DNA from: Naegleria gruberi
Lineage: Eukaryota
DNA length: 64,000 nt
Strand: one strand, 5' to 3'
Assembly (NCBI GenBank): GCA_000004985.1
Contig: GG738916.1
Below are positions 22,508 to 53,231 of the stretch, one piece after another. How positions within the stretch are numbered: position 1 is the first letter of the stretch; each line of letters begins with the position of its first letter. Both the position numbers and the translations under genes were made by a program. Below the pieces are notes generated by a model. That model saw only the letters and a program-made list of their open reading frames with translations, did no database searches and was not told the origin of the DNA.

Positions 22508-23791
22508 ATGAAGAGAGCTCGAGATGAAATGAGAAGCGCAAACAACATTGTCCTGTTATTATTCTTGTTGATGATGATGACAATCTTTTCCACAACAACA
22601 ACAGCAGCAACTACAAGTTCCACCACTAAATTATCATATATTTCAACAATTGCAGGAAGTGGATTAATATCAGCAGCAGGTATGGAAGGAGATGGTGGTT
22701 TGGCTATCAATGCCCAATTAAATTCTCCCTCCTATTCAATAAGTATTTCCCCTCTCAGCAATAATAATTACACTGAAACACTTATTGTCGATACACAAAA
22801 TGGAAGAATTAGAAAAATATTTATGAATGGTACAATTTTCACATTACCAATTAATATGCAAACAGGTAACAAGTTTAAACCAACCATGGCTGTTTTATTT
22901 AGAAATGAATTATACATGACAGATGTGTTAAATCATAGAATTCTTTCTGTTTGCCTTTCACGTTATTTGGTGACCATTGTTTCTGGAAAGCAAAACTGTA
23001 ATGAACATTCTGATTGTGATGGTTTTAGTGGTGATGGTGGTTTAGCTAGTAGAGCAAAATTAAATTCACCTAATGGTCTCTCTATTTCTCAGAATGGTGA
23101 AATTTACATTGCTGACACATTGAACCATAGAATCAGAAAGATTAATAGTTATGGAGTGATTTCAACTATTGCTGGAACTGGTAGAGCATCCTTTGGTGGT
23201 GATGGTGGATTTGCTGTTCTTTCACAATTAAACTCTCCAAATGGTGTTCATATTTCACAGAATGGTGAAATTTACATTGCTGATACATTGAACCATAGAA
23301 TTAGAAAGATTAATAGTTATGGTGTGATTTCAACAGTGGCAGGAACTGGTAGAGCATCATTTGGTGGTGATGGTGGTTTGGCTATAAACTCTCAATTGAA
23401 TTCACCATATGGCGTCCATGTTTCACAGAATGGTGAAATTTACATTGCTGACACATTGAATCATCGAATTAGAAAGATATTTGTGAATGGAACTATTACA
23501 ACCATTGCTGGAAGTAGTAGCGATGGATCATTTGGTGGTGATGGTGGTTTGTCAATTGCGAGTCGACTTAATTCTCCTAAAGGTGTTTTTGTTTCTCCAA
23601 ATAATAATGAAATATTAATTGCAGACACATCAAATAACAGGATTAGAAAGATCATTGAATGTGGTACAACTCTTCAATTTACACAAGATTTCAATGGAGC
23701 TATGAGTTGTGTGAATACATGCAATGGAACACGATCCAATTCAAAATCAGTTTGTAATGGCAATGGTATCTGTAATGGTTTTAATGAATGT
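22508..23791 (+). CDS. NHL-repeat/EGF-repeat giant surface protein, copy 1 (5' part only). The signal peptide, about six NHL repeats and the first two EGF repeats are present; the rest is lost in the assembly gap at 23792..23841.
   Basis: MKRARDEMRSANNIVLLLFLLMMMTIF is the signal peptide. NHL units are repeated (LNSPNGLSISQNGEIYIADTLNHRIRKI...). The first about 1.2 kb is more than 95% identical to copies 2 and 3. Confidence 0.7.
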
Positions 23792-23841
23792 NNNNNNNNN
23801 NNNNNNNNNNNNNNNNNNNNNNNNNNNNNNNNNNNNNNNNN
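23792..23841. other. Assembly gap (50 N).
   Basis: A run of n characters. Confidence 0.99.
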
Positions 23842-24179: not shown

Positions 24180-27100
24180 ATGAGAAGCGCAAACAACATT
24201 GTCCTGTTATTATTCTTGTTGTTGATGATGACACTCTTTTCCACAACAACAACAATAGGATACTTTTCGTATGTGAAAGCAACAACTGCAAGTTCCACCA
24301 CTAAATTATCATATATTTCAACAATTGCAGGAAGTGGATTAATGGCAGCATCAGGTATGGAAGGAGATGGTGGTTTGGCTATCAATGCCCAATTAAATGC
24401 TCCCTCCTATTCAATAAGTATTTCCCCTCTCAACAATAATAATTACACTGAAACACTTATTATAGATACACAAAATGGAAGAATTAGAAAAATATTTATG
24501 AATGGTACAATTTTCACATTACCAATTAATATGCAAACAGGTAACAAGTTTAAACCAACCGTGGCTGTTTTATTTAGAAATGAATTATACATGACAGATG
24601 TGTTAAATCATAGAATTCTTTCTGTTTCTCTGTCAAGTTATTTGGTGACCATTGTTTCTGGAAAGCAAAACTGTAATGGACATTCTGATTGTGATGGTTT
24701 TAGTGGTGATGGTGGTTTAGCTAGTAGAGCAAAATTAAATTCACCAAATGGTCTCTCTATTTCTCAGAATGGTGAAATTTACATTGCTGACACATTGAAC
24801 CATAGAATCAGAAAGATTAATAGTTATGGAGTGATTTCAACTATTGCTGGAACTGGTAGAGCATCCTTTGGTGGTGATGGTGGATTTGCTGTTCTTTCAC
24901 AATTAAACTCTCCAAATGGTGTTCATATTTCACAGAATGGTGAAATTTACATTGCTGATACATTGAACCATAGAATTAGAAAGATTAATAGTTATGGTGT
25001 GATTTCAACAGTGGCAGGAACTGGTAGAGCATCCTTTGGTGGTGATGGTGGTTTGGCTATAAACTCTCAATTGAATTCACCATATGGCGTCCATGTTTCA
25101 CAGAATGGTGAAATTTACATTGCTGACACATTGAATCATCGAATTAGAAAGATATTTGTGAATGGAACTATTACAACCATTGCTGGAAGTAGTAGCGATG
25201 GATCATTTGGTGGTGATGGTGGTTTGTCAATTGCGAGTCGACTTAATTCTCCTAAAGGTGTTTTTGTTTCTCCAAATAATAATGAAATATTAATTGCAGA
25301 CACATCAAATAACAGGATTAGAAAGATCATTGAATGTGGTACAACTCTTCAATTACACAAGATNNNNNNNNNNNNNNNNNNNNNNNNNNNNNNNNNNNNN
25401 NNNNNNNNNNNNNNNNNNNNNNNNNNNNNNNNNNNNNNNNNNNNNNNNNNNNNNNNNNNNNNNNNNNNNNNNNNNNNNNNNNNNNNNNNNNNNNNNNNNN
25501 NNNNNNNNNNNNNNNNNNNNNNNNNNNNNNNNNNNNNNNNNNNNNNNNNNNNNNNNNNNNNNNNNNNNNNNNNNNNNNNNNNNNNNNNNNNNNNNNNNNN
25601 NNNNNNNNNNNNNNNNNNNNNNNNNNNNNNNNNNNNNNNNNNNNNNNNNNNNNNNNNNNNNNNNNNNNNNNNNNNNNNNNNNNNNNNNNNNNNNNNNNNN
25701 NNNNNNNNNNNNNNNNNNNNNNNNNNNNNNNNNNNNNNNNNNNNNNNNNNNNNNNNNNNNNNNNNNNNNNNNNNNNNNNNNNNNNNNNNNNNNNNNNNNN
25801 NNNNNNNNNNNNNNNNNNNNNNNNNNNNNNNNNNNNNNNNNNNNNNNNNNNNNNNNNNNNNNNNNNNNNNNNNNNNNNNNNNNNNNNNNNNNNNNNNNNN
25901 NNNNNNNNNNNNNNNNNNNNNNNNNNNNNNNNNNNNNNNNNNNNNNNNNNNNNNNNNNNNNNNNNNNNNNNNNNNNNNNNNNNNNNNNNNNNNNNNNNNN
26001 NNNNNNNNNNNNNNNNNNNNNNNNNNNNNNNNNNNNNNNNNNNNNNNNNNNNNNNNNNNNNNNNNNNNNNNNNNNNNNNNNNNNNNNNNNNNNNNNNNNN
26101 NNNNNNNNNNNNNNNNNNNNNNNNNNNNNNNNNNNNNNNNNNNNNNNNNNNNNNNNNNNNNNNNNNNNNNNNNNNNNNNNNNNNNNNNNNNNNNNNNNNN
26201 NNNNNNNNNNNNNNNNNNNNNNNNNNNNNNNNNNNNNNNNNNNNNNNNNNNNNNNNNNNNNNNNNNNNNNNNNNNNNNNNNNNNNNNNNNNNNNNNNNNN
26301 NNNNNNNNNNNNNNNNNNNNNNNNNNNNNNNNNNNNNNNNNNNNNNNNNNNNNNNNNNNNNNNNNNNNNNNNNNNNNNNGCCAATTCTGTGAAATTCCAA
26401 TTTGTAATGGAACAATGGCAACTGATGCTTTGGTTTGTAATGGCAATGGTACATGTATTCAACCAGATATATGTAATTGTACTTCAGAATGGGGTGGACA
26501 GTATTGTGAAATTCCATATTGTAATGGAATATTGGCAAATAATATATCTGCTTGTGAAGGACATGGTAACTGTATTAGCCCAAATATTTGTGAGTGTAAT
26601 TCGACATATGGTGGAGAATTTTGTGAATCTCCAAAATGTAACTTTACACTGGCAACTGATCCTTATGTATGTACTGGAAATGGAGAATGTATTCAACCAG
26701 ATGAATGTATTTGTAATACCAATTGGACTGGTCAATTCTGTCAAACTCCACTTTGTAATGGTACGAGTGCAACTGATGCATTGGTTTGTAATGGAAACGG
26801 TCAATGTGTGAGTCCAAATATTTGTGAATGTAATTCAAGTTGGTCAGGAGAACTTTGTGAAATTCCAATTTGTAATGGAACTTTGGCCATTGATGAATTT
26901 GTGTGTAGTGGTAATGGTGCATGTATTGGTCCAGATGTTTGTGAGTGCAATTCTACATGGGGTGGACAATATTGTGAATCTCCAAAATGTAACTCTACAC
27001 TGGCAACTGATCCTTATGTATGCAATGGTAATGGAGAATGTTTTCAACCCAATGAATGTATTTGTAATTCAAATTGGACAGGTCCATTTTGTGAAATTCC

Positions 27101-29044
27101 AATATGTAATGGTATTAAGGCTACCAATGATAGTAATTCAACTTTAACCACCAATGAAACAGTGGTGTGTAGTGGAAATGGTCTTTGCATTCGTCCAGAC
27201 GAATGTTTATGTAATTCAAATTGGGCAGGTCAATATTGTGAAATTCCAATATGTGGAGATGTTTTGGCAACCAATGAAACAGCATGTAATGGCAATGGTA
27301 AATGTGTTCAACCAAATGAATGCATTTGCGACTCAAATTGGACAGGTCAATTATGTGAAACTCCAATATGTAGTGGTATAATTTCCACTAATATATCTGT
27401 TTGTAGTAGAAAGGGTGATTGTGTTGGTGCCAATCTTTGTATCTGTTTAACTGGTTGGGGAGGTGAAGATTGTTCCACACCAATTTGTAATAATATTCTA
27501 TCTACCAATGCTACTACCAATACTGATAGTAATGGAACTATAGTTAGCAATAATACATTGGTGTGTAGTGGACATGGTGAATGTACTAGTCCAAATCAAT
27601 GCAATTGTAATTTAAATTGGGGTGGTAAACAATGTGAAATACCTAAATGTCAAGGTATTTTGGCTAATAATGAGGCAGTTTGCAACTCTAGAGGATATTG
27701 TGTCAATGAAAATCAATGTCAATGTAATGAAATGTGGGGAGGTCAATTTTGTGAAATTCCATTTTGTAATGGAACTTTAGCCACTGATTCAAATGTGTGT
27801 AATTCATTGGGAGTATGTGTTGGTCCAAATCAATGTAAATGTCTCTCAGGTTGGGGTGGTAAACTATGTACAATACCATCATGTAATGGAATTCTTGCAT
27901 TTGATGAGAATGAAGTGTGTATCGCAAAGAGTAATGCATGTAGTGGAAATGGAAAGTGTATTGATCTTAATCGATGCAAATGTGACAAAGGTTGGACTGG
28001 ACCATTATGTTCAACACCAACATGTAATGGAACATCGGCCACTGAACTAACTGTTTGTAATGGTTTTGGAGTGTGTGTTGCACCAGATACGTGTAATTGT
28101 TATAGANNNNNNNNNNNNNNNNNNNNNNNNNNNNNNNNNNNNNNNNNNNNNNNNNNGCAACACCAACATGTAATGGAATTGTTGCCACAGATCCAAACGT
28201 GTGCAATTCAAGTGGTGTTTGTGTCGATTNTGATAAGTGTGAATGTTTTTCTGGTTATGGAGATGCATTCTGTGGCACTCCAACTTGTAATGGAATTCTA
28301 GCAACTCAAATTAATGTAGAAGTAGCTGTTTGTAGTGGTCGTGGAGTGTGTTTGGGACCAAATAAGTGTGTCTGTGAACCGAATTGGGGTGGTTTCATGT
28401 GTAATATTCCAAAATGCTACGATATTGAAGGAGACAAGAAAGGTGCTTGCTTTGGAAATGGTGATTGTATAGCAGTTGACTCATGTAAATGTTATCAAGG
28501 TTATATTGGTTATGATTGTCGTACTGTTGCTCCTGATAATAATTGTGGTGGATCAGGTTCAGGAACTACTTTTTGGGATGTTGTCTTGGAGGGTATGAAG
28601 ATAATTCGTACAGTGTTATCCGGTGCAGTGTCACTAGCTAGTTCAATTAGTGATGTTATTTCATCCTTAGGAAAAGGTTTGATTGACCTTCTTGGAGGAA
28701 TTGTTCCAAGCATTGCAAATATTTTCAGCTCCATTCCAAAATTAATAGAGAAAATTATTTCCTTTATTATCAGTACGGCAGAGAAGTTTATTAACTTTAT
28801 TCTCGGTTTATGGACAAAGATATTAGATTTTATATCATGGTTATTGACCTATCTTCCAAAAATATTTTCTGGAGTTACAACTCAACAAGTGGCAACAGTT
28901 TTGATTGTCATTGGTGTTGTCATACTTTTAATCATTATTTGTGTATTGTTGTATTTACTTAGTCCATATGTTACATTGGTACTTGAATTTTTCAAAATTA
29001 TTACCAGTTTTTGCTCAGCTCGTAAGAAGGCACTTAAGGAGTAG
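24180..29044 (+). CDS. NHL-repeat/EGF-repeat giant surface protein, copy 2, lying in tandem with copy 1. It is interrupted by assembly gaps (25364..26379 and 28107..28156, plus a single n at 28230), so the reading frame appears broken. The C-terminal Gly-rich hydrophobic domain and TM anchor lie at 28540..29044.
   Basis: The N-terminus starts at the second Met of the copy 1 sequence (MRSANNIV...). The EGF region 26380..28275 is near-identical to copy 3 in inverse orientation; the same alternate-frame ORFs appear on both. The tail after about 28275 diverges. Confidence 0.7.
25364..26379. other. Assembly gap (1016 N) inside NHL-EGF copy 2.
   Basis: A run of n characters. Confidence 0.99.
28107..28156. 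other. Assembly gap (50 N) inside NHL-EGF copy 2. There is an additional single n at 28230.
   Basis: A run of n characters. Confidence 0.99.
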
Positions 29045-31185: not shown

Positions 31186-31680
31186 NNNNNNNNNNNNNNN
31201 NNNNNNNNNNNNNNNNNNNNNNNNNNNNNNNNNNNNNNNNNNNNNNNNNNNNNNNNNNNNNNNNNNNNNNNNNNNNNNNNNNNNNNNNNNNNNNNNNNNN
31301 NNNNNNNNNNNNNNNNNNNNNNNNNNNNNNNNNNNNNNNNNNNNNNNNNNNNNNNNNNNNNNNNNNNNNNNNNNNNNNNNNNNNNNNNNNNNNNNNNNNN
31401 NNNNNNNNNNNNNNNNNNNNNNNNNNNNNNNNNNNNNNNNNNNNNNNNNNNNNNNNNNNNNNNNNNNNNNNNNNNNNNNNNNNNNNNNNNNNNNNNNNNN
31501 NNNNNNNNNNNNNNNNNNNNNNNNNNNNNNNNNNNNNNNNNNNNNNNNNNNNNNNNNNNNNNNNNNNNNNNNNNNNNNNNNNNNNNNNNNNNNNNNNNNN
31601 NNNNNNNNNNNNNNNNNNNNNNNNNNNNNNNNNNNNNNNNNNNNNNNNNNNNNNNNNNNNNNNNNNNNNNNNNNNNNNNN
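31186..31680. other. Assembly gap (495 N) covering the 5' end of the type I membrane protein paralogue.
   Basis: A run of n characters. Confidence 0.99.
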
Positions 31681-34802: not shown

Positions 34803-37800
34803 TTGCGTGTGAAAAAAATGACAATTTTGAAAAGTGTGTTGCCTTCTAAAGCAGCACCTGTTATTGTTGCGTTTATTGGTGTGGTGATGGTATTGGTTCT
34901 CCATATTTCATTTGTGCAGTCCCAAATACGTTCTCTATCGACTTTTTACTCTACAGGTACATGGATTTCGTCTGTTGTTGTTGATTCTAGCAATACAATT
35001 TATTTCGCATCAAACAATAGATTGTTTAGTCTTCCAAGTGGTTCAGAAACACCTACAGTAATTGCAGGCAGTGGTTTAAACGTATTTTCTGATGGACCAG
35101 CAATGAGTAGTGGAATTCAATCAGTTAAAGCAATGTATTATTGTGCCAATAATGACATTTTATTTATTGACAATGACAGATTGAGAAAACTTTCACAAGG
35201 TATTGTTTCAACATTGGCAGGTACAAAAGAAGCTGGATTTAATGGAGATGGTATTCCAGCTGTTAGTGCTCAGTTAAATTCACCATTAGGTGTTTCAATG
35301 TCAAAAGGCGGTGAAATTTATATTGCAGATAAACTAAATCATAGAATTAGAAAGATTGATATCTTTGGTAAAATTACAACAATTGCAGGAACTGGACAAG
35401 CAGGTTATAATGGTTAGTATTTATTTAAATTCTTTTTTACTAATAATCTTAAAGGTGAATCACAACCAGCAGAATCTGCCTATTTAAATGGTCCAGCAGG
35501 TATTTTTCTTGATGAAAATGATAACATTTTCATAGCAGAAGATTTGGGACATAGAGTAAGATTCATTGATAGATCCACCTCTCTTATTGTAACGTTGGCC
35601 GGAACTGGAGAACCAGGATATGGAGGTGATGGTTCTTTAGCAACTCAAGCTCAACTTAATGGACCAGAGGCTGTTATCCTTTCTGGAACTGGAGCTGTCA
35701 TTATTTCTGATACATATAATCATGCTATAAGAACAATTTTAGATAATAATCTCATTACAATTGCTGGAACTCTTGGTACCAATGGAGATAGTGATGGTAG
35801 TTTGGAAACAAAGCTATATTATCCTATGGGTCTTACTATTACACCATATCAAGCACTATTAATTGCCGACTCATGGAATGACAAAATCAAAATGTTAATT
35901 GATGAGGCCCCAATGATGGCGCTAGCAACAGATTGTAATAATTTTGCCATGGCATGTTGTGTGAATGTTATTGATCGTAATCCATTTGCTACTCAATGCC
36001 ATTGTATATCTGGATGGGATGGAACATATTGTGATATACCAGTGTGTAATGGTGTGAGGGCTGATAGAGGTGCATGTGGTGGTTCATCTAAGGGAGATTG
36101 TACATCTCCAAATAAGTGCACTTGTAAGAATGGATATTATGGTAGTGATTGCTCTCAATTTTCTTGTCCTGGACGTTATGAAGACAGTATAGATTGTTAT
36201 GGTCATGGAACATGTATTGCTCCAAGTACTTGCTCTTGTGATGCTGGGTATTCAGGATATTTTTGTGATCAATTCCCTTGTCCAGATTGTCATGGACATG
36301 GAGTTTGTACTGGTCCAAACACTTGCTATTGTCTTACTGCTGGATGGAAAGGTTCAGATTGTTCCATTCCAATTTGTTTTGGAAATAGTCAGGATTCAGC
36401 ATGTAGTGGTCCAACCAATGGTAAATGTACAAGCCCTGATGGTTGTTCTTGTAACTCTGGATGGACAGGAAATAATTGCCAAACACCAACATGTACAAAT
36501 AATTGTAATGGTCGTGGTGAATGTGTAGGTCCAAACACTTGTTCATGTATCTCTGGATGGGGAGGTGTTGATTGTTCAATGCCTGCCTGTAATTGCCCAG
36601 CAGTTGGTTATCAATATTGTGCCGGCCCAAATACTTGTGCTTGTATTTCTGGATATTCAGGTCCAAATTGTGATATTCCTGTTTGTAGTGGTGGTTGTGG
36701 GAATGGTTATTGTTCAAGCCCAGGTACATGCACTTGTAACCCAGGATGGACTGGTGCAGATTGTTCAACTTTTACATGCACAAATGGTTGTAACTCTCAT
36801 CAACAGTGTACAGGTCCCAATACTTGTACTTGTAATGCTGGATATTCAGGTCCAAACTGTGAAAGTTTTTCATGTTCAAATAATTGCAATGGTCATGGAA
36901 TGTGTGTTGCTCCAAACACTTGTGCTTGTTATTCTCGGTGGTCAGGTTCAGATTGTTCCATTCCTCAGTGTGATACTGGATGTAATGGACATGGTACTTG
37001 TGTTGGTCCAAATGTTTGTGTTTGTAATTCTGGATGGGCAAGTCATTCAACAGGTTGTAACACATTTACTTGTCCAAATGATTGTAGTGGTCATGGAACT
37101 TGTGATGGTCCAAACAGTTGTACTTGTAATTCTGGATGGACAGGCTTAGATTGTTCCATTGTTTTTTGTTTTGGAAATACTCAGGATTTAGCATGTAGTG
37201 GTCCAACAAATGGAAAATGTACAAGTCCAGATGTTTGTTCTTGTAATTCTGGATGGACAGGAAATAATTGCCAAACACCAATATGTACAAATGGATGTGG
37301 TTCAAATGGAGTTTGTACAGCTCCAAACACATGTACTTGTAATGATGGTTGGATGGGTAGTGATTGTTCACTTCCTATTTGCCCAAATCAATGCAGTGCT
37401 CATGGAAAATGTGTGTCTCCTGCTATTTGTTCTTGTACTGCTGGTTGGACTGGAAATGATTGTGGTATGGCAATTTGTACTAGTGGATGTTTACAAGGAA
37501 GTTGTACATCTCCAAATACGTGTACTTGTAAAGAAGGATGGAAAGGTACAGACTGTTCAATTCCTTCATGTTACGGAAACATTCAGAGTTTGGCATGTAG
37601 TGGTCCTACACATGGTAAATGTGTAAGTCCTGATATTTGTAATTGTACAAGTGAATGGACAGGTCTCAATGTGACAAACCAGTATGCATTAATGGATGTG
37701 GTAATTCAAATCAAGGATTGTGTGTAGCTCCAAATACATGTGAATGTAAAGAAGGATGGAATGGTACAGACTGTTCAATTCCTATTTGTTTTGGAAATAG

Positions 37801-39244
37801 TCAAGATTCAGCATGTAATGGTCCTACACATGGTAAATGTGTAATCTTGCTGTTTGCGATTGTACAAGTGAATGGACAGGATCTCAATGTGAAATCCCTG
37901 TATGTAGAGTGGATGTGGTAGTTCAAATCAAGGATTATGCGTAGCTCCAAACACATGCGAATGTAAAGAAGGATGGACTGGAGCAGATTGCTCCATTGCT
38001 ATTTGCTTTGGAAACATTCAGATTTGGCATGTAGTGGTCCTACACATGGTAAATGTTTGAGTCCAGATGCGTGTAATTGCACAAGTGAATGGACAGGTCC
38101 TCAATGTGACAAACCAGTATGCATTAATGGATGTGGTAATTCAAATCAAGGATTGTGTGTAGCTCCAAATACATGTGAATGTAAAGAAGGATGGACTGGT
38201 ACAGACTGTTTAACCCCTATTTGTTTTGGAAATAGTCAAGATTCATCATGTAATGGTCCTACACATGGTAAATGTGTAGATCTTGCTGTTTGCGATTGTA
38301 CAAGTGAATGGACAGGATCTCAATGTGAAATCCCTGTATGTAAGAGTGGATGTGGTAGTTCAAATCAAGGATTATGCGTAGCTCCAAACACATGCGAATG
38401 TAAAGAAGGATGGACTGGAGCAGATTGCTCCATTGCTATTTGCTTTGGAAAAACTCAAGATTCAGCATGTAATGGTACAAATGGTAAATGTGTTAGTCCA
38501 GATGCCTGTAATTGCACAAGTGAATGGACAGGATCTGAATGTGAAAAACCAGTATGCATTAATGGATGTGGTAATTCAAATCAAGGATTGTGTGTAGGTC
38601 CAAACATTTGTAGATGTAAAGAAGGATGGACGGGTAAAAATTGTTTAACTCCAATCTGTTTTGGAAAGGTAAATAACGCAGCCTGTAATAGTATACTACA
38701 TGGACAATGTGTTTCTCCAAATGTTTGCCAATGCAATTCTGGTTGGATGGGACGTAATTGTACAATTCCTGTTTGTTTTGATGAATTTGGTGCTGTTACT
38801 GCATGTGGTTCTCCACAAGTGGTATGTGAATTGGGTTGGACAGGTATTGATTGTTCTGTTCCTGTTTGTTTTGATATTAATAATCCAGGTTGGGCAGGAG
38901 CAGATTGTACCACTCCTATTTGTTATGGAAAAATCAATCCAAGTGCTTGTAGTGGTTCCTCTCATGGAAAATGTATTGCTCCTAATTTTTGTAAATGTGA
39001 TCCAAAATGGATGGGAAAGGATTGTTCACAAACTGCATGCTTTGGAATTTCACAATTCGATAATAATGTATGTAATGGAAGAGGAAAGTGTATTGATTAT
39101 AATACGTGCCATTGTAATGATGGTTCTAGTGGCAACGCTTGTGAAAAACAAGATTTCTCATGGCAATATGTTATTGCCACTGCAATGATTTTATTGCCAA
39201 CAATTGTTGTCTACTACTTTTCAAAATCCGAGTATTTTAAATAA
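34803..39244 (+). CDS. Second NHL-repeat/EGF-repeat giant type I surface protein, a distant paralogue. It has a signal peptide, four or five NHL repeats, about 60 EGF repeats, a C-terminal TM (YVIATAMILLPTIVVYYF) and a short tail. Exon 1 is 34803..35412, a 42-nt intron lies at 35413..35454 (donor GTTAGTATTT), exon 2 starts at 35455. The frame is disrupted by single-nt deletions inside a near-identical internal tandem repeat (about 37650-38050).
   Basis: NHL motifs (LNSPLGVSMSKGGEIYIADKLNHRIRKI) are present. EGF units have the form CxCxxGWxGxDCSxPxC. The frame is restored in 37973..39244, which ends TAA after a TM segment. Confidence 0.6.
37600..38470 (+). repeat. Intragenic tandem array: two and a fraction copies of an about 435-bp unit (about 145 aa, four to five EGF repeats each) at about 95% identity. 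The first copy carries about four 1-nt deletions relative to the second.
   Basis: The unit anchor ggtcctacacatggtaaatgt recurs at about 37605, 37820, 38040 and 38260. Tgtaagagtggatgtggtagttc in the second copy reads tgtagagtggatgtggtagttc in the first. Confidence 0.7.
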
Positions 39245-44603: not shown

Positions 44604-47600
44604 CTACATGTTGTACTCCTTAAGAGCTTTTTCACTACTTGCTAATGCACTCGAAACACCTTTGACAAATTGAAGTGCAATTGTAATATATGGACTAAGG
44701 AAAGATAACAATACTATAATAATGATCAAAAGTAGTGCAACACCAATGATTACTAAAACTGTTACCACTTGTTGAAGCGTAATTCCAGAAAATATTTTTG
44801 GAAAATAAATCACTGCCCATTCTATAAATTCAACAAATGTTGTCCACAAATTGAGAATAAAGTTAATAAACTTCTCTGCATTGCTAATCAAAAAGTTCAG
44901 AATTTTCTCCATTAATTTTGGAATGGAGCTGAAAATATCTGCAATGTTTGGAATAACTCCTCCAAAAAGGTCAATAAAACCAGTTCCTAAGGATTCAATA
45001 ACATTACCAATTGAACTACCTATAGATGCTGCACCAGATGCCATATCACCAATTAAATCCCAACCTTCCACAAGAACATCCCAAAAAGAGGCACCTCTAC
45101 GTGAGTCACCACAATTCTTGTCAGGAACAACACTACTACAATCATAATCCATATAACCCTGATAACATTTACATGTATCAACTGCTATACAATCACCATG
45201 TCCAGAACATACTTCTTTCTTGTCTCCTGAAATATCGAAACATTTTGGAAAGCCACACATGAAACCACCCCAATTCGGTTGACAGATACACTTATTTGGT
45301 CCCAAACACAATCCACGACCACTACACACAGCTCCTTCTACATTAATGTGAGTGGATAAAATGCTATTACAACTTAAAGTGCCACAGAATGCATCTCCAT
45401 AACCAGAAAAACATTCACACTTATCAAAATCGACACAAACACCACTTGAATTGCACACGTTTGGATCTGTGGCAACAATTCCATTACATGTTGGTGTTGC
45501 ACATAATTTTCCACCCCATGAATTGCAACTACATTCATCATTCTCAATACAAATACCCCTCGAGTTACATACTGTTGGATCTGTGGCCAAAGTTCCATTA
45601 CATGTTGGAACGGTACAGAATTCACCTCCCCAATCTCTATAACAATTACACTTATCTGGTGCAACACACACTCCAAAACCATTACAAACAGTTAGTTCAG
45701 TGGCCGATGTTCCATTACATGTTGGTGTTGAACATAATGGTCCAGTCCAACCTTTCTCACATTTGCATCGATTAAGATCAATACACTTTCCATTTCCACT
45801 ACATGCATTACTCTTTGCGATACACACTTCATTCTCATCAAATGCAAGAATTCCATTACATGATGGTATTGTACATAGTTTACCACCCCAACCTGAGAGA
45901 CATTTACATTGATTTGGACCAACACATACTCCCAATGAATTACACACATTTGAATCAGTTGCTAAAGTTCCATTACAAAATGGAATTTCACAAAATTGAC
46001 CTCCCCACATTTCATTACATTGACATTGATTTTCATTGACACATTTTCCTCTAGAGTTGCAAACTGCCTCATTGTTAGCCAATATACCTTGACATTTAGG
46101 TATTTCACATTGTTTACCACCCCAATTTAAATTACAATTGCATTGATTTGGACTAGTACATTCACCATGTCCACTACACACCAATGTATTATTGCTAACT
46201 ATAGTTCCATTACTATCAGTATTGGTAGTAGCATTGGTAGATAGAATATTATTACAAATTGGTGTGGAACAATCTTCACCTCCCCAACCAGTTAAACAGA
46301 TACAAAGATTGGCACCAATACAATCACCCTTTCTACTACAAACAGATATATTAGTGGAAATTATACCACTACATATTGGAGTTTCACATAATTGATCTGT
46401 CCAATTTGAGTCGCAAATGCATTCATTTGGTTGAACACATTTACCATTGCCATTACATGCTGTTTCATTGGTTGCCAAAACATCTCCACATATTGGAATT
46501 TCACAATATTGACCTGCCCAATTTGAATTACATAAACATTCGTCTGGACGAATGCAAAGACCATTTCCACTACACACCACTGTTTCATTGGTGGTTAAAG
46601 TTGAATTACTATCATTGGTAGCCTTAATACCATTACATATTGGAATTTCACAAAATGGACCTGTCCAATTTGAATTACAAATACATTCATTGGGTTGAAA
46701 ACATTCTCCATTACCATTGCATACATAAGGATCAGTTGCCAGTGTAGAGTTGCATTTTGGAGATTCACAATATTGTCCACCCCATGTAGAATTGCACTCA
46801 CAAACATCTGGACCAACACATGCACCATTACCACTACACACAAATTCATAAATGGCCAAAGTTCCATTACAAATTGGAATTTCACAAAGTTCTCCTGACC
46901 AACTTGAATTACATTCACAAATATTTGGACTCACACATTGACCGTTTCCACTACAAACCAAAACATCAGTTGCACTCGTACCATTGCAAAGTGGAGTTTG
47001 ACAGAATTGACCAGTCCAATTACTATTACATAAACATTGGTCTGGATTAATACATATACCATTAGTGTTACAAACTGATTCATTTGTGGCTAAAGTTCCA
47101 TTACAGATTGGAATTTCACACAAATAACCTCCCCATGTTGAATTACATTCACAGGTGTCTGGACTGACACAAATACCATTACCACTACAAACTGATAAAT
47201 CTGTACCAGCTGTTCCATTACAAAGTGGAGTTTGACAGAATTGACCAGTCCAATTGGTATTACAAATACATTCATCTGGTTGAATACATTCACCATTTCC
47301 ATTACATACATAAGGATCAGTTGCCAGTGTAGAGTTACATTTTGGAGATTCACAAAATTCTCCACCATATGTCGAATTACACTCACAAATATTTGGGCTA
47401 ATACAGTTACCATGTCCTTCACAAACAGATATATTATTTGCCAATATTCCATTACAAAATGGAATTTCACAATACTGTCCACCCCATTCTGAAGTACAAT
47501 TACATATATCTGGTTGAATACATGTACCATTGCCATTACAAACCAAAGTATCAGTTGCCATTGTTCCATTACAAATTGGAATTTCACAAAATTGGCCTGT

Positions 47601-50600
47601 CCAATTGGAATTGCAAAAACATTCATCTGGATTAATACAAATACCGTTGCTGTTGCACACTGTGTCATTGGTAGCTAACGTTCCATTACAAACTGGGACT
47701 TGACAAAATTGTCCACCCCATTCTGATGTACAAACACATTCATCTGGTTGAATACATATTCCATTGCCATTACATACAGTTTCGTTGGTGGCTTCAGTAC
47801 CATTACATATTGGAATTTCACAAAATTGACCTGTCCAATTGTAATTGCAAAGACATTCGTCAGGTTGAATACATGCTCCATTGTTGTTACAAACAAAAGG
47901 ATCAGTTGCGAGTGTAGAGTTGCATTTTGGAATTTCACATAAATCACCTCCCCATGTTGAATTGCAGTTACAAATATTTGGATTAATACATTCACCATTA
48001 CCACTACAAACTGATAAATCTGTACCAGCTGTACCATTACAAAGTGGTGTTTCACACAATTTACCAGTCCAATTTGTATTACAAATGCATTCATCTGGTT
48101 GAACACATTCGCCATTACCATTACAAACAGAATAGTTGTTAGCTAAAGTTCCATTACAAATTGGAATTTCACAAAATTCTCCACTATATGTCGAATTACA
48201 CTGACAAAGATTTGGACCAACACATGCACCGTTACCGCTACATACAGATTCGTTAGTGGCTTCTGTTCCATTACAAATTGGAATTTCACAAAATTGCCCA
48301 GTCCAATTGGAATTACATAAACATTCATCTGGGCGAATGCAAAGACCATTTCCACTACACGCCACTGTTTCATTGGTGGCTAATGTCGCATTGCTATCAT
48401 TGGTAGCTTTAATACCTCCACAGATTGGAATTTCACAATAAGGACCTGTCCAATTTGAATTACAAAAACATTCATCTGGCTGAATACATTCTCCATTACC
48501 ATTACAAACAAAAGGATCAGTTGCATTTGTTCCATTACATACTGGAATTTCACAAAATTGACCAGTCCAATTCGAGTTACATTCACAAATATTTGGACTA
48601 ATACATTTACCATGTCCTGCACAAACAGATGTATCATTAGCAAGAGTATCATTACATATTGGAATTTCACAAAATTCTCCACTCCAAGTTGAATTACATT
48701 CACAAACATCTGGACTAATACAAATACCATTACCACTACATACTGTTGAGTTTGCATCCTCTAGGGTTACATTACAGAGAGGAAATTGACAAAATGGACC
48801 ATAATACCCTGATTGACAATCGCAAGTGTCCAGTGAAGTACATATTCCATGAGAAGTACAAACTGTAGAATTTGTACTTTCAATTGAATTACAAGTTGTC
48901 ATATTACAATAAGTTCCAAAGTATCCACTTGTACAAACACAATTATCACTTGAAATGCACAATCCATGAGAATTGCAAACAGTAGTTTCATTTCCTGAAA
49001 TGTTAAAGCAAGTTGGAATTTCACATTGATATCCTGAATAGCCATCATTACATACACATGTATCGTTTGCAACACATGTTCCGTTTTGATTATTACAAAC
49101 CATTGAATCATTTCCCAATATTGAAAAACAAATTGGAATTTCACAATATTGACCTGTAAATCCTGATTCACAATCACAAGTTTCTGGGCTAGTGCAATTA
49201 CCAACACCATTACAAACACTTGAACTATTTGAAAGTGTATTGTTACAAATAGAAAGCTCACAACACACTCCAGCATATCCCTGACAAATACAAGGATCAT
49301 TAGTATCAATCAGAGCAAATGATGTTAAATGGGATGTTTCACAAATAACAGTACTAGAATTCACCATTTTAGTTCTTACACCATCAGATTTCCATGTATT
49401 TTCAATCCTATCCAAATACATACATGTTAAATTGGATGATTTGGTTATGTTTTGTGAGTGTAATGGAATGATCAAAGTGATTGGCTTGTTCAATTGTTTT
49501 ACAATAACTTCTTTACCACTATCACTCAGTAAAGAAACAGAAACTATAGCACTTTTAACTTTAGGTGTTATCTTATCAATATAAATTGATGAAAATAGAA
49601 TTAATGAGCTATCACTGTTCAATCCACTTGTTGAAATCAAATCACTACTCAATGTGGAAGGAAGTGAAATTTGAATACCCATATTAGTATTCGAATAACT
49701 ATAAGAAACATAAATATTCTTCGAATTTAAATCACCCAATTGATTTGCAACTTGATAATTGTAGGATGTGACATTTGTTGAAACAGCTATTGAACAATAA
49801 GATCCAATCCAACCGTAATTGCAAACACAAGTTTCTGGACTAGTACAATTTCCAACACCATTACAAACCTTCTTACTTGTAGCAAGTGTACCATTACAAA
49901 TTGGTGTTTGACAATATTGACCTCCCCAAGTTGAATTACATTTACATTCATTAAAACCATTACAGATACCATTGCCATTACAAACTGATTTTGAATTGGA
50001 TCGTGTTCCATTGCATGTATTCACACAACTCATAGCTCCATTGAAATCTTGTGTAAATTGAAGAGTTGTGCCACATTCAATGATCTTTCTAATCCTGTTA
50101 TTGGATGTGTCTGCAATTAATATTTCATTATTATTTGGAGAAACAAAAACACCTTTAGGAGAATTAAGTCGACTCGCAATTGACAAACCACCATCACCAC
50201 CAAATGATCCATCGCTACTACTTCCAGCAATGGTTGTAATAGTTCCATTCACAAATATCTTTCTAATTCGATGATTCAATGTGTCAGCAATGTAAATTTC
50301 ACCACTCTGTGAAACATGGACGCCATATGGTGAATTCAATTGAGAGTTTATAGCCAAGCCACCATCACCACCAAATGATGCTCGACCAGTTCCTGCTACT
50401 GTTGTAATCAGTCCGTTAACAAATATCTTTCTAATTCTATGGTTCAATGTATCAGCAATATAAATTTCACCATTCTGAGAAATATGAACACCATTTGGAG
50501 AGTTCAATGGTGAAAGAACAGCAAATCCACCGTCACCACCAAATGATGCTCTACCAGTTCCAGCAATAGTTGAAATTACACCATAACTATTAATCTTTCT

Positions 50601-51227
50601 GATTCTATGGTTCAATGTGTCAGCAATGTAAATTTCACCATTCTGAGAAATAGAGAGACCATTTGGTGAATTTAATTTTGCTCTACTAGCTAAACCACCA
50701 TCACCACTAAAACCATCACAATCAGAATGTTCATTACAGTTTTGCTTTCCAGAAACAATGGTCACCAAATAACTTGACAGAGAAACGGAAAGAATTCTAT
50801 GATTTAACACATCTGTCATGTATAATTCATTTCTAAATAAAACAGCCATGGTTGGTTTAAACTTGTTACCTGTTTGCATATTAATTGGTAATGTGAAAAT
50901 TGTACCATTCATAAATATTTTTCTAATTCTTCCATTTTGTGTATCGACAATAAGTGTTTCAGTGTAATTATTATTGTTGAGAGGTGAAATACTTATTGAA
51001 TAGGAGGGAGAATTTAATTGGGCATTGATAGCCAAACCACCATCTCCTTCCATACCTGCTGCTGCCATTAATCCACTTCCTGCAATTGTTGAAATATATG
51101 ATAATTTAGTGGTGGAACTTGTAGTTGCTGCTGTTGTTGTTGTGGAAAAGATTGTCATCATCATCAACAAGAATAATAACAGGACAATGTTGTTTGCGCT
51201 TCTCATTTCATCCAGAGCTCTCTTCAT
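44604..51227 (-). CDS. NHL-repeat/EGF-repeat giant surface protein, copy 3. It is intact (2207 aa, no gaps) and shows the full architecture. The domains in order are: signal peptide; six to seven NHL repeats (aa about 45-385); two EGF repeats; an about 165-aa domain ending in a GPS/GAIN-like motif (aa about 480-645); about 45 tenascin-type EGF repeats rich in N-glycosylation sequons; an about 120-aa Gly-rich amphipathic domain; a TM anchor; and an about 30-aa tail.
   Basis: It is a continuous ORF on the minus strand. The signal peptide is MKRALDEMRSANNIVLLLFLLMMMTIF. The GPS-like motif is TCMYLDRIENTWKSDGV...STVICETSHLTSFALI. The C-terminal TM is VVTVLVIIGVALLLIIIIVLL. Confidence 0.8.
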   Translation of the reverse strand: MKRALDEMRSANNIVLLLFLLMMMTIFSTTTTAATTSSTTKLSYISTIAGSGLMAAAGMEGDGGLAINAQLNSPSYSISISPLNNNNYTETLIVDTQNGRIRKIFMNGTIFTLPINMQTGNKFKPTMAVLFRNELYMTDVLNHRILSVSLSSYLVTIVSGKQNCNEHSDCDGFSGDGGLASRAKLNSPNGLSISQNGEIYIADTLNHRIRKINSYGVISTIAGTGRASFGGDGGFAVLSPLNSPNGVHISQNGEIYIADTLNHRIRKIFVNGLITTVAGTGRASFGGDGGLAINSQLNSPYGVHVSQSGEIYIADTLNHRIRKIFVNGTITTIAGSSSDGSFGGDGGLSIASRLNSPKGVFVSPNNNEILIADTSNNRIRKIIECGTTLQFTQDFNGAMSCVNTCNGTRSNSKSVCNGNGICNGFNECKCNSTWGGQYCQTPICNGTLATSKKVCNGVGNCTSPETCVCNYGWIGSYCSIAVSTNVTSYNYQVANQLGDLNSKNIYVSYSYSNTNMGIQISLPSTLSSDLISTSGLNSDSSLILFSSIYIDKITPKVKSAIVSVSLLSDSGKEVIVKQLNKPITLIIPLHSQNITKSSNLTCMYLDRIENTWKSDGVRTKMVNSSTVICETSHLTSFALIDTNDPCICQGYAGVCCELSICNNTLSNSSSVCNGVGNCTSPETCDCESGFTGQYCEIPICFSILGNDSMVCNNQNGTCVANDTCVCNDGYSGYQCEIPTCFNISGNETTVCNSHGLCISSDNCVCTSGYFGTYCNMTTCNSIESTNSTVCTSHGICTSLDTCDCQSGYYGPFCQFPLCNVTLEDANSTVCSGNGICISPDVCECNSTWSGEFCEIPICNDTLANDTSVCAGHGKCISPNICECNSNWTGQFCEIPVCNGTNATDPFVCNGNGECIQPDECFCNSNWTGPYCEIPICGGIKATNDSNATLATNETVACSGNGLCIRPDECLCNSNWTGQFCEIPICNGTEATNESVCSGNGACVGPNLCQCNSTYSGEFCEIPICNGTLANNYSVCNGNGECVQPDECICNTNWTGKLCETPLCNGTAGTDLSVCSGNGECINPNICNCNSTWGGDLCEIPKCNSTLATDPFVCNNNGACIQPDECLCNYNWTGQFCEIPICNGTEATNETVCNGNGICIQPDECVCTSEWGGQFCQVPVCNGTLATNDTVCNSNGICINPDECFCNSNWTGQFCEIPICNGTMATDTLVCNGNGTCIQPDICNCTSEWGGQYCEIPFCNGILANNISVCEGHGNCISPNICECNSTYGGEFCESPKCNSTLATDPYVCNGNGECIQPDECICNTNWTGQFCQTPLCNGTAGTDLSVCSGNGICVSPDTCECNSTWGGYLCEIPICNGTLATNESVCNTNGICINPDQCLCNSNWTGQFCQTPLCNGTSATDVLVCSGNGQCVSPNICECNSSWSGELCEIPICNGTLAIYEFVCSGNGACVGPDVCECNSTWGGQYCESPKCNSTLATDPYVCNGNGECFQPNECICNSNWTGPFCEIPICNGIKATNDSNSTLTTNETVVCSGNGLCIRPDECLCNSNWAGQYCEIPICGDVLATNETACNGNGKCVQPNECICDSNWTDQLCETPICSGIISTNISVCSRKGDCIGANLCICLTGWGGEDCSTPICNNILSTNATTNTDSNGTIVSNNTLVCSGHGECTSPNQCNCNLNWGGKQCEIPKCQGILANNEAVCNSRGKCVNENQCQCNEMWGGQFCEIPFCNGTLATDSNVCNSLGVCVGPNQCKCLSGWGGKLCTIPSCNGILAFDENEVCIAKSNACSGNGKCIDLNRCKCEKGWTGPLCSTPTCNGTSATELTVCNGFGVCVAPDKCNCYRDWGGEFCTVPTCNGTLATDPTVCNSRGICIENDECSCNSWGGKLCATPTCNGIVATDPNVCNSSGVCVDFDKCECFSGYGDAFCGTLSCNSILSTHINVEGAVCSGRGLCLGPNKCICQPNWGGFMCGFPKCFDISGDKKEVCSGHGDCIAVDTCKCYQGYMDYDCSSVVPDKNCGDSRRGASFWDVLVEGWDLIGDMASGAASIGSSIGNVIESLGTGFIDLFGGVIPNIADIFSSIPKLMEKILNFLISNAEKFINFILNLWTTFVEFIEWAVIYFPKIFSGITLQQVVTVLVIIGVALLLIIIIVLLSFLSPYITIALQFVKGVSSALASSEKALKEYNM

Positions 51228-51447
51228 TTTTTAACAGTCGGTTTTGGTAAACTCTTTCAAAAGTCATCGTTGTAATATTTTTTACATTTTTGTACGTTTT
51301 TGTGTATTTTGCCGAATCAAAAGAAAAATGGGGAAAATGGAGTTAAGGTTCAAAAAAAATAAGAGAGCATGTTGACAACTTGTTGTCCATCATTCTGTTG
51401 TTTTTCTAGAGAAAGTACCCACTATCAATCCATCGATAATAACACAA
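51228..51447. promoter_or_regulatory. Shared divergent intergenic region for the copy C gene pair (duplicate of 22366..22507). It contains the conserved element gcatgttgacaacttgttgtccatcattctg at 51367..51397.
   Basis: The sequence is identical to the copy A spacer. The conserved element is also retained at 2648..2678 upstream of the unpaired copy B. Confidence 0.4.
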
Positions 51448-53166
51448 TTGCCGATGAAATATTCTAAAATATTGCAAGTGAGTCAAGATATATTTTGCAA
51501 TGTAATTATTCCCTATTTTAATTCACATACTTTGATTGCTTTTGCTGGAGTTTGTTCCGAGTGGAGAAGAATTGTCAAAGAAAGTGATACTAGAGGAATC
51601 AAGTGTGTAAATGTAAAACATAAATCAGCAAGATACAGATTTGAATCATTAAATGATGAGGAGGAAATGAGTGGATTAATGAAAGGTGACCTCTTGCAAA
51701 TATTCTCACAAATGGAAATAAGAACTTTTCCAGAATTTGAGGAAACTATTTTTCTTAACAGATCTTTTTTTAAAAAGTTATTCAATTCAAAAAAATTGGA
51801 ATTATTGACATTACAAAATACTAATATTATTACAATTATTATTCCTGCTAAAGATATTTCACCAATTACAACACTGAAATTAATAAGTGTTCAAATGGAA
51901 GTTGAGAATTTAAGAACTATATGCACTAATTTACTAAATTTAACAGATCTAACATTAATTGATAATGGACTTGATTATAAGGCAACACTTGTATTGACCA
52001 AATCAAAGTTGACTCGTCTAACACATCTTACACTTCGTAATCGAATTGGAGATGAAGGTGTTAATCAAATATTGACTCAACCAGGAAATATTAGAACTTT
52101 GAAATATATTAACTTTGTTGCAATACCTCCAGAATCATCTCAAAAAGACAATATTTCATACATAGCACCAATTAATAGTTCAATTTTACCAAATCTTGAA
52201 TATTTTTCAATAGATTTGGAGATGTCGACAAAATCAATTATGAATGTGTTGAATAGTGGTAATTCATGGAGAGAATTGACCTTTCTTCACTCACATTTAA
52301 ATAGTGAATGTGTGAAACAAATTGGAAAAATTCATACACTCCAAAAACTTTGTTTTCAATCAAAATTGGAAGTAGATTTACCTTACAGATGTTTATTACC
52401 TCTTCAAAATAATCTCACTCATCTAGAAATTGGTCCTGTTGATAATAATACATTCTCTGAATTGAGTGAGGGTAACTTTCTTAATTTGAAATATTTATGC
52501 ATTCTAAATACAAAACAAGGAAATGAAATAGATGAATATGTAATACGAAAATTCTGTGAAAAAGTTCAAAATCTAACCTATTTAGAGTTAAGAAAAGTAG
52601 TAATGAAAAGTGGATGTATGAATCACATATCCCAACTTTCAAAAATAACTGATTTACGAATTATTCAAACACATATTGATAGTGAAGGAATGAAATATTT
52701 ATCAAGAATGAGTAACATGACAACATTATATTTAGGAAGTGAAATTACATTTGATGGTATTTCATATTTATGCAAGGGAAATTTACTAAATTTACACACT
52801 TTAAAGTTTACAAGAGTTCCTTCAGGCAAGTTCAAATATGACTCAAAGTTTACATCAAGTTTAGCTCATTCAAATTTTCCAAAATTAAGATATTTGAGTT
52901 TTTATTATGAATTTGATATTTATGCAACTGATATGTTACATTCTGGACCATCTCTGAAAAATTTGATACATTTAGAACTTTATTGGGTAGATTTAACAAT
53001 TACACCTATTTTAGTACCTATAGTCAATAATCTGGCACCTAAATATCTGACTGGAATTGGAGGTTTTGCAGCCCTTAAAGCAAAAGTCATATCACAATTA
53101 AGACAACCAACAAAAATCAACTATTTGATTGCATATACAGATATACGAATTGATGAATTTATTTAA
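51448..53166 (+). CDS. F-box-like/LRR protein, copy C. The start is probably MKYSKILQ at 51454.
   Basis: It is near-identical to copies A and B. It shares the C-terminus GIGGFAALKAKVISQLRQPTKINYLIAYTDIRIDEFI with copy A. Confidence 0.65.
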   Translation: MPMKYSKILQVSQDIFCNVIIPYFNSHTLIAFAGVCSEWRRIVKESDTRGIKCVNVKHKSARYRFESLNDEEEMSGLMKGDLLQIFSQMEIRTFPEFEETIFLNRSFFKKLFNSKKLELLTLQNTNIITIIIPAKDISPITTLKLISVQMEVENLRTICTNLLNLTDLTLIDNGLDYKATLVLTKSKLTRLTHLTLRNRIGDEGVNQILTQPGNIRTLKYINFVAIPPESSQKDNISYIAPINSSILPNLEYFSIDLEMSTKSIMNVLNSGNSWRELTFLHSHLNSECVKQIGKIHTLQKLCFQSKLEVDLPYRCLLPLQNNLTHLEIGPVDNNTFSELSEGNFLNLKYLCILNTKQGNEIDEYVIRKFCEKVQNLTYLELRKVVMKSGCMNHISQLSKITDLRIIQTHIDSEGMKYLSRMSNMTTLYLGSEITFDGISYLCKGNLLNLHTLKFTRVPSGKFKYDSKFTSSLAHSNFPKLRYLSFYYEFDIYATDMLHSGPSLKNLIHLELYWVDLTITPILVPIVNNLAPKYLTGIGGFAALKAKVISQLRQPTKINYLIAYTDIRIDEFI

Positions 53167-53231
53167 CAATTCTACAACTCTTGCTTCTAACACTCTAGAG
53201 AATATCATAAAATCAAGATATAACCCTAGTA

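What the first reader, a model, noticed from the sequence alone, without database searches (positions are those of the whole stretch)
34803..39244. Second NHL/EGF giant gene with a near-identical internal tandem repeat and frame-disrupting single-base deletions
A distant paralogue of the NHL-EGF family (about 60 EGF units, C-terminal TM) contains two and a fraction copies of an about 435-bp unit at about 95% identity (37600-38470). The first unit differs from the second by about four 1-nt deletions. These break the reading frame at 37650-38050 even though the flanking sequence, more than 3 kb on each side, is in frame. This may be a recently expanded repeat inside a functional gene with consensus errors from a repeat-collapsed draft assembly. 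Alternatively it may be a gene caught in early pseudogenisation. The gene also shows a 42-nt intron with the unusual shared donor GTTAGTATTT, which recurs in the SSR3 intron.
Basis: seen in the sequence. Interest (0 to 1): 0.5.

Follow-up and report, generated by a model that had tools for sequence, protein, structure and literature searches.

The report
Naegleria NHL-EGF gene, probable assembly frameshifts
A surface-protein gene of a Naegleria amoeba recently duplicated a four-EGF-module block, and the four single-base deletions that break its reading frame all lie in one repeat copy of a gapped draft assembly, so they are most likely sequencing or assembly errors and the finding is ordinary.

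Summary
The core observation holds. A + strand gene (ATG 34818, 42-nt intron 35413-35454, stop 39244) carries a tandem repeat of 434-438 nt at 37590-38667 (2.5 copies). Copy 1 lacks exactly four single bases, after 37664, 37843, 37905 and 38022. Restoring them gives one open 1462-aa frame: signal peptide, six NHL blades, about 30 teneurin-type EGF modules (not 60), one C-terminal TM helix and a 7-residue tail.

The organism is a Naegleria species. The gene is a distant paralogue (37-45% in the NHL part) of three near-identical NHL/EGF genes in the window.

I read the deletions as consensus errors, at about 0.6:
- The window is a scaffolded draft with five N gaps, four of them inside the neighbouring NHL/EGF genes.
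- All four deletions fall within 358 nt of one unit (P about 0.002 if random).
- Three lie in 320 nt otherwise 100% identical to copy 2.
- Another 1-nt deletion sits 3 nt from a gap edge.
- Splicing and frameshifting do not fit.

A very young pseudogene or null allele remains possible (about 0.25). No independent sequence of the repeat was found, so reads are needed. Interest is low.

The parts
34818..35412 (+). Exon 1: start codon, signal peptide or anchor (hydrophobic stretch about aa 6-37), and NHL blades 1-3 with the start of blade 4
   Evidence: Sequence reading, translation, hydropathy
35413..35454 (+). 42-nt intron, phase 1: donor GTTAGTATTT, TACTAAT branch-like motif, AAAG acceptor, in-frame TAG
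   Evidence: GC is 14% against about 35-40% in the exons. Splicing restores the 19-residue spacing between AGTG and LNGP seen in the neighbouring blades.
35455..39244 (+). Exon 2 through the TAA stop. It is open only after four 1-nt repairs.
34935..35894 (+). NHL beta-propeller region (six blade-like repeats, about aa 40-345), interrupted by the intron
   Evidence: Pfam NHL. PDB sequence hits to teneurin-like protein 9ifo/9pt5 (E 6e-59), NHLRC2, TRIM71 and Pizza designs.
35946..39145 (+). Array of about 30 teneurin/tenascin-type EGF modules
   Evidence: Pfam EGF_TEN 2.6e-123 and EGF_Teneurin 6.4e-75. 30 CxC..C signatures. PDB teneurin-3/-2 EGF region, E 4e-17.
37590..38023 (+). Repeat copy 1 (four EGF modules; 434 nt, should be 438). 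It carries all four deletions.
38024..38461 (+). Repeat copy 2 (438 nt, intact frame)
38462..38667 (+). Partial, more diverged repeat copy 3 (in frame, with one codon missing)
37664..37665 (+). Deletion 1: GGT(C)CTC. It lies in a 115-nt block otherwise identical to copy 2.
37843..37844 (+). Deletion 2: GTA(G)ATC. It lies in a 205-nt block otherwise identical to copy 2.
37905..37906 (+). Deletion 3: TGT(A)AGAG. It lies in the same 205-nt identical block.
38022..38023 (+). Deletion 4: CAGA(G)TTTGG at the copy 1/copy 2 junction, relative to the junction at 37575-37600
39167..39223 (+). C-terminal transmembrane helix, followed by a 7-residue tail (SKSEYFK) and the stop

Best explanation
This is a real, probably functional Naegleria gene for a type I surface protein. 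The protein has a signal peptide, a six-bladed NHL propeller at the tip, a stalk of about 30 teneurin-type EGF modules, one TM helix and a 7-residue cytoplasmic tail.

The gene recently duplicated a four-EGF cassette (438 nt, 146 aa) in tandem. This is the usual way such arrays grow, by unequal recombination between in-register modules.

The four single-base deletions are not biological. They are consensus errors of a scaffolded draft assembly, made where reads from near-identical copies could not be placed or coverage was thin. Four under-called bases within 358 nt and no substitutions is what one poor read or an unpolished stretch would give.

Shown: the gene model, the domains, the repeat, the four sites, the gaps in the assembly and the clustering. 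Inferred: that the deletions are errors, the mechanism of duplication, and the adhesion or ligand-binding role of the protein.
For: 1. The window is a gapped draft. N runs lie at 23792-23841, 25364-26379, 28107-28156, 28230 and 31186-31680, and four of the five are inside the neighbouring NHL/EGF paralogues. The assembler therefore failed in exactly this kind of sequence.
2. All four deletions lie within 358 nt of a 4385-nt CDS. Simulated P is 0.0019 for random placement. The other roughly 4 kb of the gene has no stop or frameshift.
3. Deletions 1-3 lie in blocks of 115 and 205 nt that are otherwise 100% identical to copy 2. All 17 substitutions between the copies lie elsewhere. Real independent mutations would be mostly substitutions.
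4. All four events are deletions in the same copy. None is in copy 2 or copy 3.
5. A further 1-nt deletion (TTT to TT at 25361) shifts the frame of paralogue 24180.. and sits 3 nt from a gap edge.
6. Long ORFs elsewhere, including a 2207-aa paralogue, are unbroken. A 575-aa stretch matches it at 90% with no gap. The error is therefore local.
7. Differences between the copies give dN/dS of 0.3-0.5, compatible with a constrained gene, though the numbers are small.
8. Each frame segment between deletions encodes perfect EGF modules.
Against: - No reads, transcripts or second assembly of the repeat could be obtained, so the deletions were never directly shown to be absent.
- Only two of the four sites are in (2-nt) homopolymers, so a simple homopolymer error model does not cover them all.
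- Other near-identical duplicates in the window (96-98% over 1.2-1.8 kb) were assembled without frameshifts.
- Large, fast-evolving gene families like this one do shed pseudogenes.
- No orthologue closer than about 40% was found, so conservation of this particular gene is untested.
Confidence: 0.6

Rival explanations
1. The deletions are real. The gene is a very young pseudogene or a null allele segregating in the population. One unit of the newly duplicated cassette has been hit by four -1 frameshifts, so translation ends at the TAG at 37725-37727 and gives a secreted NHL + 17-EGF fragment with no anchor.
For: - The sequence as given has the deletions.
- The family is multi-copy and locally duplicated, so the loss of one member is tolerable.
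- Non-homopolymer sites are less typical of some sequencing error modes.
- Excising the 434-nt unit restores the frame, so such an allele could arise and revert by unequal crossing-over.
Against: - Four independent indels within 358 nt and none in the other 4 kb (P about 0.002).
- No substitutions in the 320 nt of identical sequence that hold three of them.
- No stop codons or other lesions anywhere else.
- The draft assembly is demonstrably poor in this gene family.
Confidence: 0.25
2. Copy 1 as a whole is an assembly artefact. It would be an extra unit built from poor or mis-joined reads (or from a second haplotype), and the true gene would have one cassette fewer. Removing raw unit 37590-38023 gives an intact 1316-aa ORF.
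For: - Excision of exactly one 434-nt unit restores the frame.
- All four lesions are in that unit.
- The assembly is gapped and the family was hard to assemble.
Against: - Copy 1 differs from copy 2 by 12 substitutions clustered in the variable loops of the EGF modules. These give sensible amino-acid changes (V/L, I/A, N/T, SI/LT, A/S), as expected of a true paralogous unit and not of read noise.
- Its 3' junction reproduces the upstream junction.
Confidence: 0.1
3. The frame is restored at the RNA or translation level by splicing, programmed +1 ribosomal frameshifting, or insertional RNA editing.
For: None beyond the fact that the flanks are in frame.
Against: - No GT..AG interval with a GTAAG/GTWAGT-type donor restores the frame.
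- The region is 40% GC, against 14-17% for the two real introns.
- The first in-frame stop after deletion 1 is 60 nt downstream. A shift at the stop would therefore not recover the EGF sequence.
- From my reading of the sequence, the four sites share no slippery or stop-codon motif.
- From my own knowledge, not tested here: nuclear insertional editing is not known in Heterolobosea.
Confidence: 0.03

Closest known systems
Teneurins (metazoan Ten-m/Odz) and bacterial 'teneurin-like' proteins
   Same: Both domain types match best here. The NHL part hits the teneurin-like protein 9ifo/9pt5 at E 6e-59 and teneurin-2/-4 NHL at about 1e-8. The EGF cassette hits the teneurin-3/-2 EGF region at E 4e-17. 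Pfam gives EGF_TEN, EGF_Teneurin and NHL. Both are cell-surface proteins with a propeller plus EGF modules.
   Different: - Teneurins are type II proteins with an N-terminal cytoplasmic domain, 8 EGFs placed N-terminal to the NHL, then a YD/Rhs shell and a toxin-like C-terminus.
- This protein is type I. Its NHL comes first, about 30 EGFs follow, a TM helix sits at the C-terminus, and Pfam found no YD shell.
- It is not a teneurin.
Tenascins
   Same: Both have tenascin-type 6-Cys EGF modules in long tandem arrays. One metagenome relative is labelled 'tenascin' by its source.
   Different: No heptad assembly domain, FNIII repeats or fibrinogen globe were detected. This protein is membrane-anchored, not secreted into a matrix.
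The window's own NHL/EGF paralogues (22508.., 24180.., 44604..51227) and other Naegleria NHL/EGF proteins (N. gruberi P0081/P0250, N. lovaniensis P0111)
   Same: Where the paralogues are complete, they share the architecture: N-terminal signal, NHL blades, then a long EGF array. All lie in one genomic neighbourhood.
   Different: - Identity in the NHL part is only 37-45%, while the three paralogues are about 95-98% identical to one another.
- The EGF period differs: alternating 34- and 39-residue modules (218/435 nt) here, against 117-nt units in the paralogues.
Assembly artefacts in near-identical tandem repeats of draft genomes
   Same: The indels are clustered, all deletions, without substitutions, and confined to one copy of a near-identical repeat. 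The scaffold's N gaps sit in sister genes.
   Different: This is not demonstrated with reads. The sequencing platform is unknown.

Membership tests
NHL-repeat beta-propeller proteins (Pfam PF01436 / TEN_NHL) | Sequence match to the NHL repeat model above the curated cut-off | tested here: met
   PF01436 scores 44.9 bits against a cut-off of 20, E 8.8e-12. PDB hits to NHL propellers reach E 6e-59.
NHL-repeat beta-propeller proteins (Pfam PF01436 / TEN_NHL) | Five or six tandem blades that can close a propeller | tested here: inconclusive
   Six blade-like repeats can be read in aa 40-345, with a constant 19-residue AGTG..LNxP spacing in blades 3-5. No structure was predicted.
Teneurin/tenascin-type EGF arrays (PF25024, PF23106, PF07974) | Repeated 6-Cys modules with the CxCxxGWxGxxC signature, matching the Pfam models above cut-off | tested here: met
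   EGF_TEN 410 bits (cut-off 65), EGF_Teneurin 247 bits, EGF_2 243 bits. 30 signatures counted.
Teneurins | Type II topology with an N-terminal intracellular domain | tested here: not met
   There is an N-terminal signal-like hydrophobic segment. The only other hydrophobic helix is at aa 1438-1456, followed by 7 residues.
Teneurins | EGF modules N-terminal to the NHL, followed by a YD/Rhs shell and a Tox-GHH-like C-terminus | tested here: not met
   The order here is NHL then EGF. Pfam gave no YD, Rhs or toxin match.
Tenascins | FNIII repeats and a C-terminal fibrinogen-like globe | tested here: not met
   Pfam found no such families.
Processed or decaying pseudogene | Disabling lesions spread along the gene (stops, indels) together with relaxed constraint | tested here: not met
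   The lesions are confined to 358 nt. The rest of the 4.4-kb CDS is open. dN/dS between copies is 0.3-0.5 (small numbers).
Assembly or consensus error | The deletions are absent from raw reads or from an independent assembly of the same strain | not testable with these tools
   A 99.6%-identical strain exists in ENA assembly ERZ929261 for another part of the window. No fragment of this gene is in the protein collection or in JGI metagenomes.
Programmed ribosomal frameshifting | A conserved slippery or stop-codon motif at each shift site | tested here: not met
   From my reading of the sequence, the four sites (GGT|CTC, GTA|ATC, TGT|AGA, AGA|TTT) share no motif. Stops lie tens of nt downstream of the shifts.

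The most novel reading that the evidence does not exclude
The four -1 deletions are real and arose together, as a by-product of the duplication event itself. One way would be error-prone repair synthesis or template switching while copying the cassette. The new unit would then have been born defective, and the locus would be a null allele that reverts in one step by unequal crossing-over, because excising the 434-nt unit restores the frame. That would be a natural snapshot of mutagenic tandem duplication in a protist surface-protein gene.
Probability: 0.07. Interest if true: 0.35.

Novelty: new member of a known kind. Interest (0 to 1): 0.1.

Why it matters
It matters little beyond annotation.

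- If the deletions are errors, the gene should be annotated as one intact 1462-aa NHL-EGF membrane protein, not as two fragments or a pseudogene. The locus also marks a stretch of the assembly that needs polishing.
- The gene family itself may be of some interest for how Naegleria binds surfaces or prey, but nothing here tests that. The family is a clustered, rapidly duplicating set of type I proteins that combine teneurin-like NHL and EGF domains in a non-teneurin order.
- If the deletions are real, it is one more young pseudogene in an expanding family.

Tried and rejected
1. I looked for the same gene in public data:
- Full repaired protein against 5.8 billion proteins: no self or near-self hit. 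The best NHL+EGF relative was 35% identical.
- The repeat region alone: nothing above 42%.
- Exact-product look-ups of seven window ORFs: only Paf1 was found, in ENA metagenome assembly ERZ929261, 99.6% identical in DNA. It did not lead to the target gene.
- JGI metagenome DNA pattern across deletion 2: none.
- Protein-guided scan: only relatives at 24-38%.

2. Splicing rescue is rejected. 340 GT..AG intervals have the right length class, but none has a GTAAG/GTWAGT donor, and the region is not intron-like in composition.

3. Frameshifting at stop codons is rejected on the positions of the stops.

4. I asked whether deletion sites coincide with places where the A- and B-type 218-nt units differ by offset indels, which would suggest a mixed-read consensus. 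Three of the four do. The units differ at about one position in five, so this is weak and I do not rely on it.

5. Literature searches found nothing relevant for Naegleria + NHL + EGF or for the ENA project number PRJEB11402.

6. The species and the sequencing platform could not be fixed:
- CCT-epsilon is 89% identical to N. lovaniensis, 83% to Willaertia, and 93% to an unnamed Logan contig.
- No annotated genome in the collection matches exactly.
Full report
**What is in the sequence**

The window is AT-rich (about 32% GC), gene-dense and poor in introns. A CCT-epsilon gene at 11743-13155 is 89% identical to that of Naegleria lovaniensis and 83% to that of Willaertia magna. The source is therefore a Naegleria species.

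No annotated genome in the searched collections matches it exactly. Six of seven exact-product look-ups failed. The seventh (Paf1) matched only a contig of an ENA metagenome assembly, which is 99.6% identical in DNA.

**The gene model**

- The start codon is at 34818.
- Exon 1 ends at 35412.
- A 42-nt intron occupies 35413-35454. It has the donor GTTAGTATTT, a TACTAAT branch-like motif, an AG acceptor, 14% GC and an in-frame TAG.
- Exon 2 runs from 35455 to the TAA at 39242-39244.
- Splicing restores the exact 19-residue spacing between the AGTG and LNxP motifs that the flanking NHL blades show, so the intron is credible.
- The same 10-nt donor occurs once more, in the 86-nt intron of a TRAP-gamma (SSR3) gene on the minus strand. 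I confirmed that gene by Pfam on the spliced product.
- Two occurrences against 0.33 expected, reached by 4 of 100 shuffles, is an ordinary donor variant followed by AT-rich intron sequence.

**The repeat and the deletions**

Tandem Repeats Finder gives a period of 435 with 2.5 copies at 37593-38667, and a nested period of 218.

| Unit | Coordinates | Length | State |
|---|---|---|---|
| Copy 1 | 37590-38023 | 434 nt | carries all four deletions |
| Copy 2 | 38024-38461 | 438 nt | intact frame |
| Copy 3 | 38462-38667 | partial | more diverged, in frame, one codon missing |

- Each full unit encodes four EGF modules. These alternate between a 39-residue type (CFGNSQDSACNGPTHGKC...) and a 34-residue type (CINGCGNSNQGLC...).
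- Alignment shows that copy 1 lacks one base after 37664, 37843 and 37905 relative to copy 2.
- Copy 1 also lacks one base after 38022, relative to the equivalent junction at 37575-37600.
- The three-frame translation shows perfect EGF sequence stepping through frames 0, 2, 1, 0, 2.
- Inserting the four bases gives a 4389-nt CDS with no internal stop.

Three particulars are wrong:
- There are about 30 EGF modules, not 60.
- The downstream in-frame flank is 1.2 kb, not more than 3 kb.
- The repeat extends to 38667.

**What the protein is**

The repaired 1462-aa product has these parts, in order:
- an N-terminal hydrophobic signal;
- six NHL-like blades (aa 40-345);
- a short Cys-rich linker;
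- about 30 teneurin/tenascin-type EGF modules;
- one TM helix (aa 1438-1456);
- a 7-residue tail.

By sequence, the NHL part is closest to solved 'teneurin-like' proteins (E 6e-59). The EGF cassette is closest to the teneurin-3/-2 EGF region (E 4e-17).

The order and topology differ from teneurins: NHL comes first, EGFs second, the TM helix is at the C-terminus, and Pfam found no YD shell. The protein is therefore not a teneurin. It belongs to a lineage-specific family of type I NHL-EGF surface proteins.

Three other members lie in the window, at 22508.., 24180.. and 44604-51227. They are about 95-98% identical to one another at the N-terminus and only 37-45% identical to the target.

By inference, the protein presents a ligand-binding propeller on a long, rigid EGF stalk. 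With so short a tail, it is more likely an adhesin or binding protein than a signalling receptor. That is inference from architecture only.

**Are the deletions real?**

I could not obtain reads or an independent sequence. The full protein and the repeat region alone found nothing above 42% identity in 5.8 billion proteins. Two scans of JGI metagenomes found nothing close. The argument therefore rests on internal evidence.

1. The window is a scaffolded draft with five N runs: 50, 1016, 50, 1 and 495 N. Four of them lie inside the neighbouring NHL/EGF genes. One truncates the gene at 22508.., and one changes the frame of the gene at 24180...
2. The four deletions span 358 nt of a 4385-nt CDS. 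Simulation gives P = 0.0019 for four random sites. The rest of the gene has no lesion.
3. Repaired copy 1 and copy 2 differ by 17 substitutions, clustered at unit positions 34-57, 173-223 and 429-437. Positions 58-172 and 224-428 are identical except for deletions 1, 2 and 3. Three indels and no substitution in 320 nt is not what independent mutations give. It is what consensus errors give where reads from two copies cannot be told apart or coverage is thin.
4. All four events are deletions, and all are in one copy.
5. Another 1-nt deletion (TTT to TT at 25361) shifts the frame of a paralogue 3 nt from a gap edge. This shows that the assembly makes such errors at weakly supported positions.
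6. Long ORFs elsewhere are intact, including a 2207-aa paralogue and a 575-aa stretch that matches it at 90% with no gap. The problem is therefore local.

**Alternatives**

- *Young pseudogene or null allele.* This cannot be excluded (about 0.25). The family is multi-copy. Two of the sites are not in homopolymers. Other 96-98% duplicates in the window were assembled without frameshifts.
- *Copy 1 is itself an artefact.* This is a variant of the artefact reading. Excising the raw 434-nt unit restores an open 1316-aa frame. However, the 12 substitutions in its 5' half are codon-sensible differences in variable loops, which argues that the unit is real.
- *Splicing.* Rejected. No interval with a plausible donor restores the frame, and the region is 40% GC against 14-17% in the real introns.
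- *Programmed frameshifting.* Rejected. The sites share no motif, and the stops lie well downstream of the shifts.

**Verdict**

The gene is real and the tandem duplication of a four-EGF cassette is real and recent. The four frame-breaking deletions are most probably errors of a gapped draft assembly. The finding is ordinary. Its practical value is to flag a stretch that needs read-level checking and a gene that should be annotated as one intact ORF.

Noticed in passing
window 20513-23791 vs 49944-53207 (inverted), and 2699-4505: There is a segmental duplication of an LRR gene plus the 5' part of an NHL/EGF gene. Identity is 98% (1714 nt) and 97.6% (1506 nt) between the inverted copies. A third LRR-gene copy at 2699-4505 is 96% identical.
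   Followed up: partly
window 23792-23841, 25364-26379, 28107-28156, 28230, 31186-31680: Assembly gaps (N runs of 50, 1016, 50, 1 and 495). The first four are inside NHL/EGF paralogues. The gene at 22508.. is cut off by a gap after 'CNGNGICNGFNEC', and the frame of 24180.. changes across the 50-N gap.
   Followed up: yes
window 25361: A 1-nt deletion (TTT to TT) relative to the 96%-identical paralogue at 22508.., only 3 nt from the gap at 25364. It shifts the frame at the contig end and is probably a contig-end error.
   Followed up: partly
window 7845-10738 = L008: Contig k127_559977 of ENA metagenome assembly ERZ929261 (run ERR1078381, project PRJEB11402) is 99.6% identical. It has 5 mismatches and 3 small indels, and all the indels are non-coding. 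A very close strain of this Naegleria is therefore present in that sample.
   Followed up: partly
window 7234-7352 (-) and 5460-5530 (+): A 5S rRNA gene (105 bits) and a tRNA-Asp(GTC) gene lie among the protein-coding genes.
   Followed up: no
window 46630-48359 (-) and 26382-27114 (+): The large paralogues carry long arrays of 117-nt (39-aa) EGF units at only about 66% identity, 14.8 copies in the 2207-aa gene. This is a different and older repeat architecture from the 218/435-nt cassette of the target.
   Followed up: no
window 23024-23551, 24699-25226, 50184-50711: In the three near-identical paralogues, three successive NHL blades form a 168-nt tandem repeat at 79-82% identity. This suggests the propeller blades themselves were amplified fairly recently.
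   Followed up: no
proteins P0241, P0242, P0260: The best database matches to the four-EGF cassette (38-40% identity) are bacterial formylglycine-generating-enzyme family proteins from Bradymonadia/Deltaproteobacteria that carry teneurin-type EGF domains. That is an unexpected place for this EGF type.
   Followed up: no
window 11743-13155: The best match to CCT-epsilon is an unnamed Logan contig at 93%, and no N. gruberi protein appears among the hits. The exact species of the window remains unidentified.
   Followed up: partly
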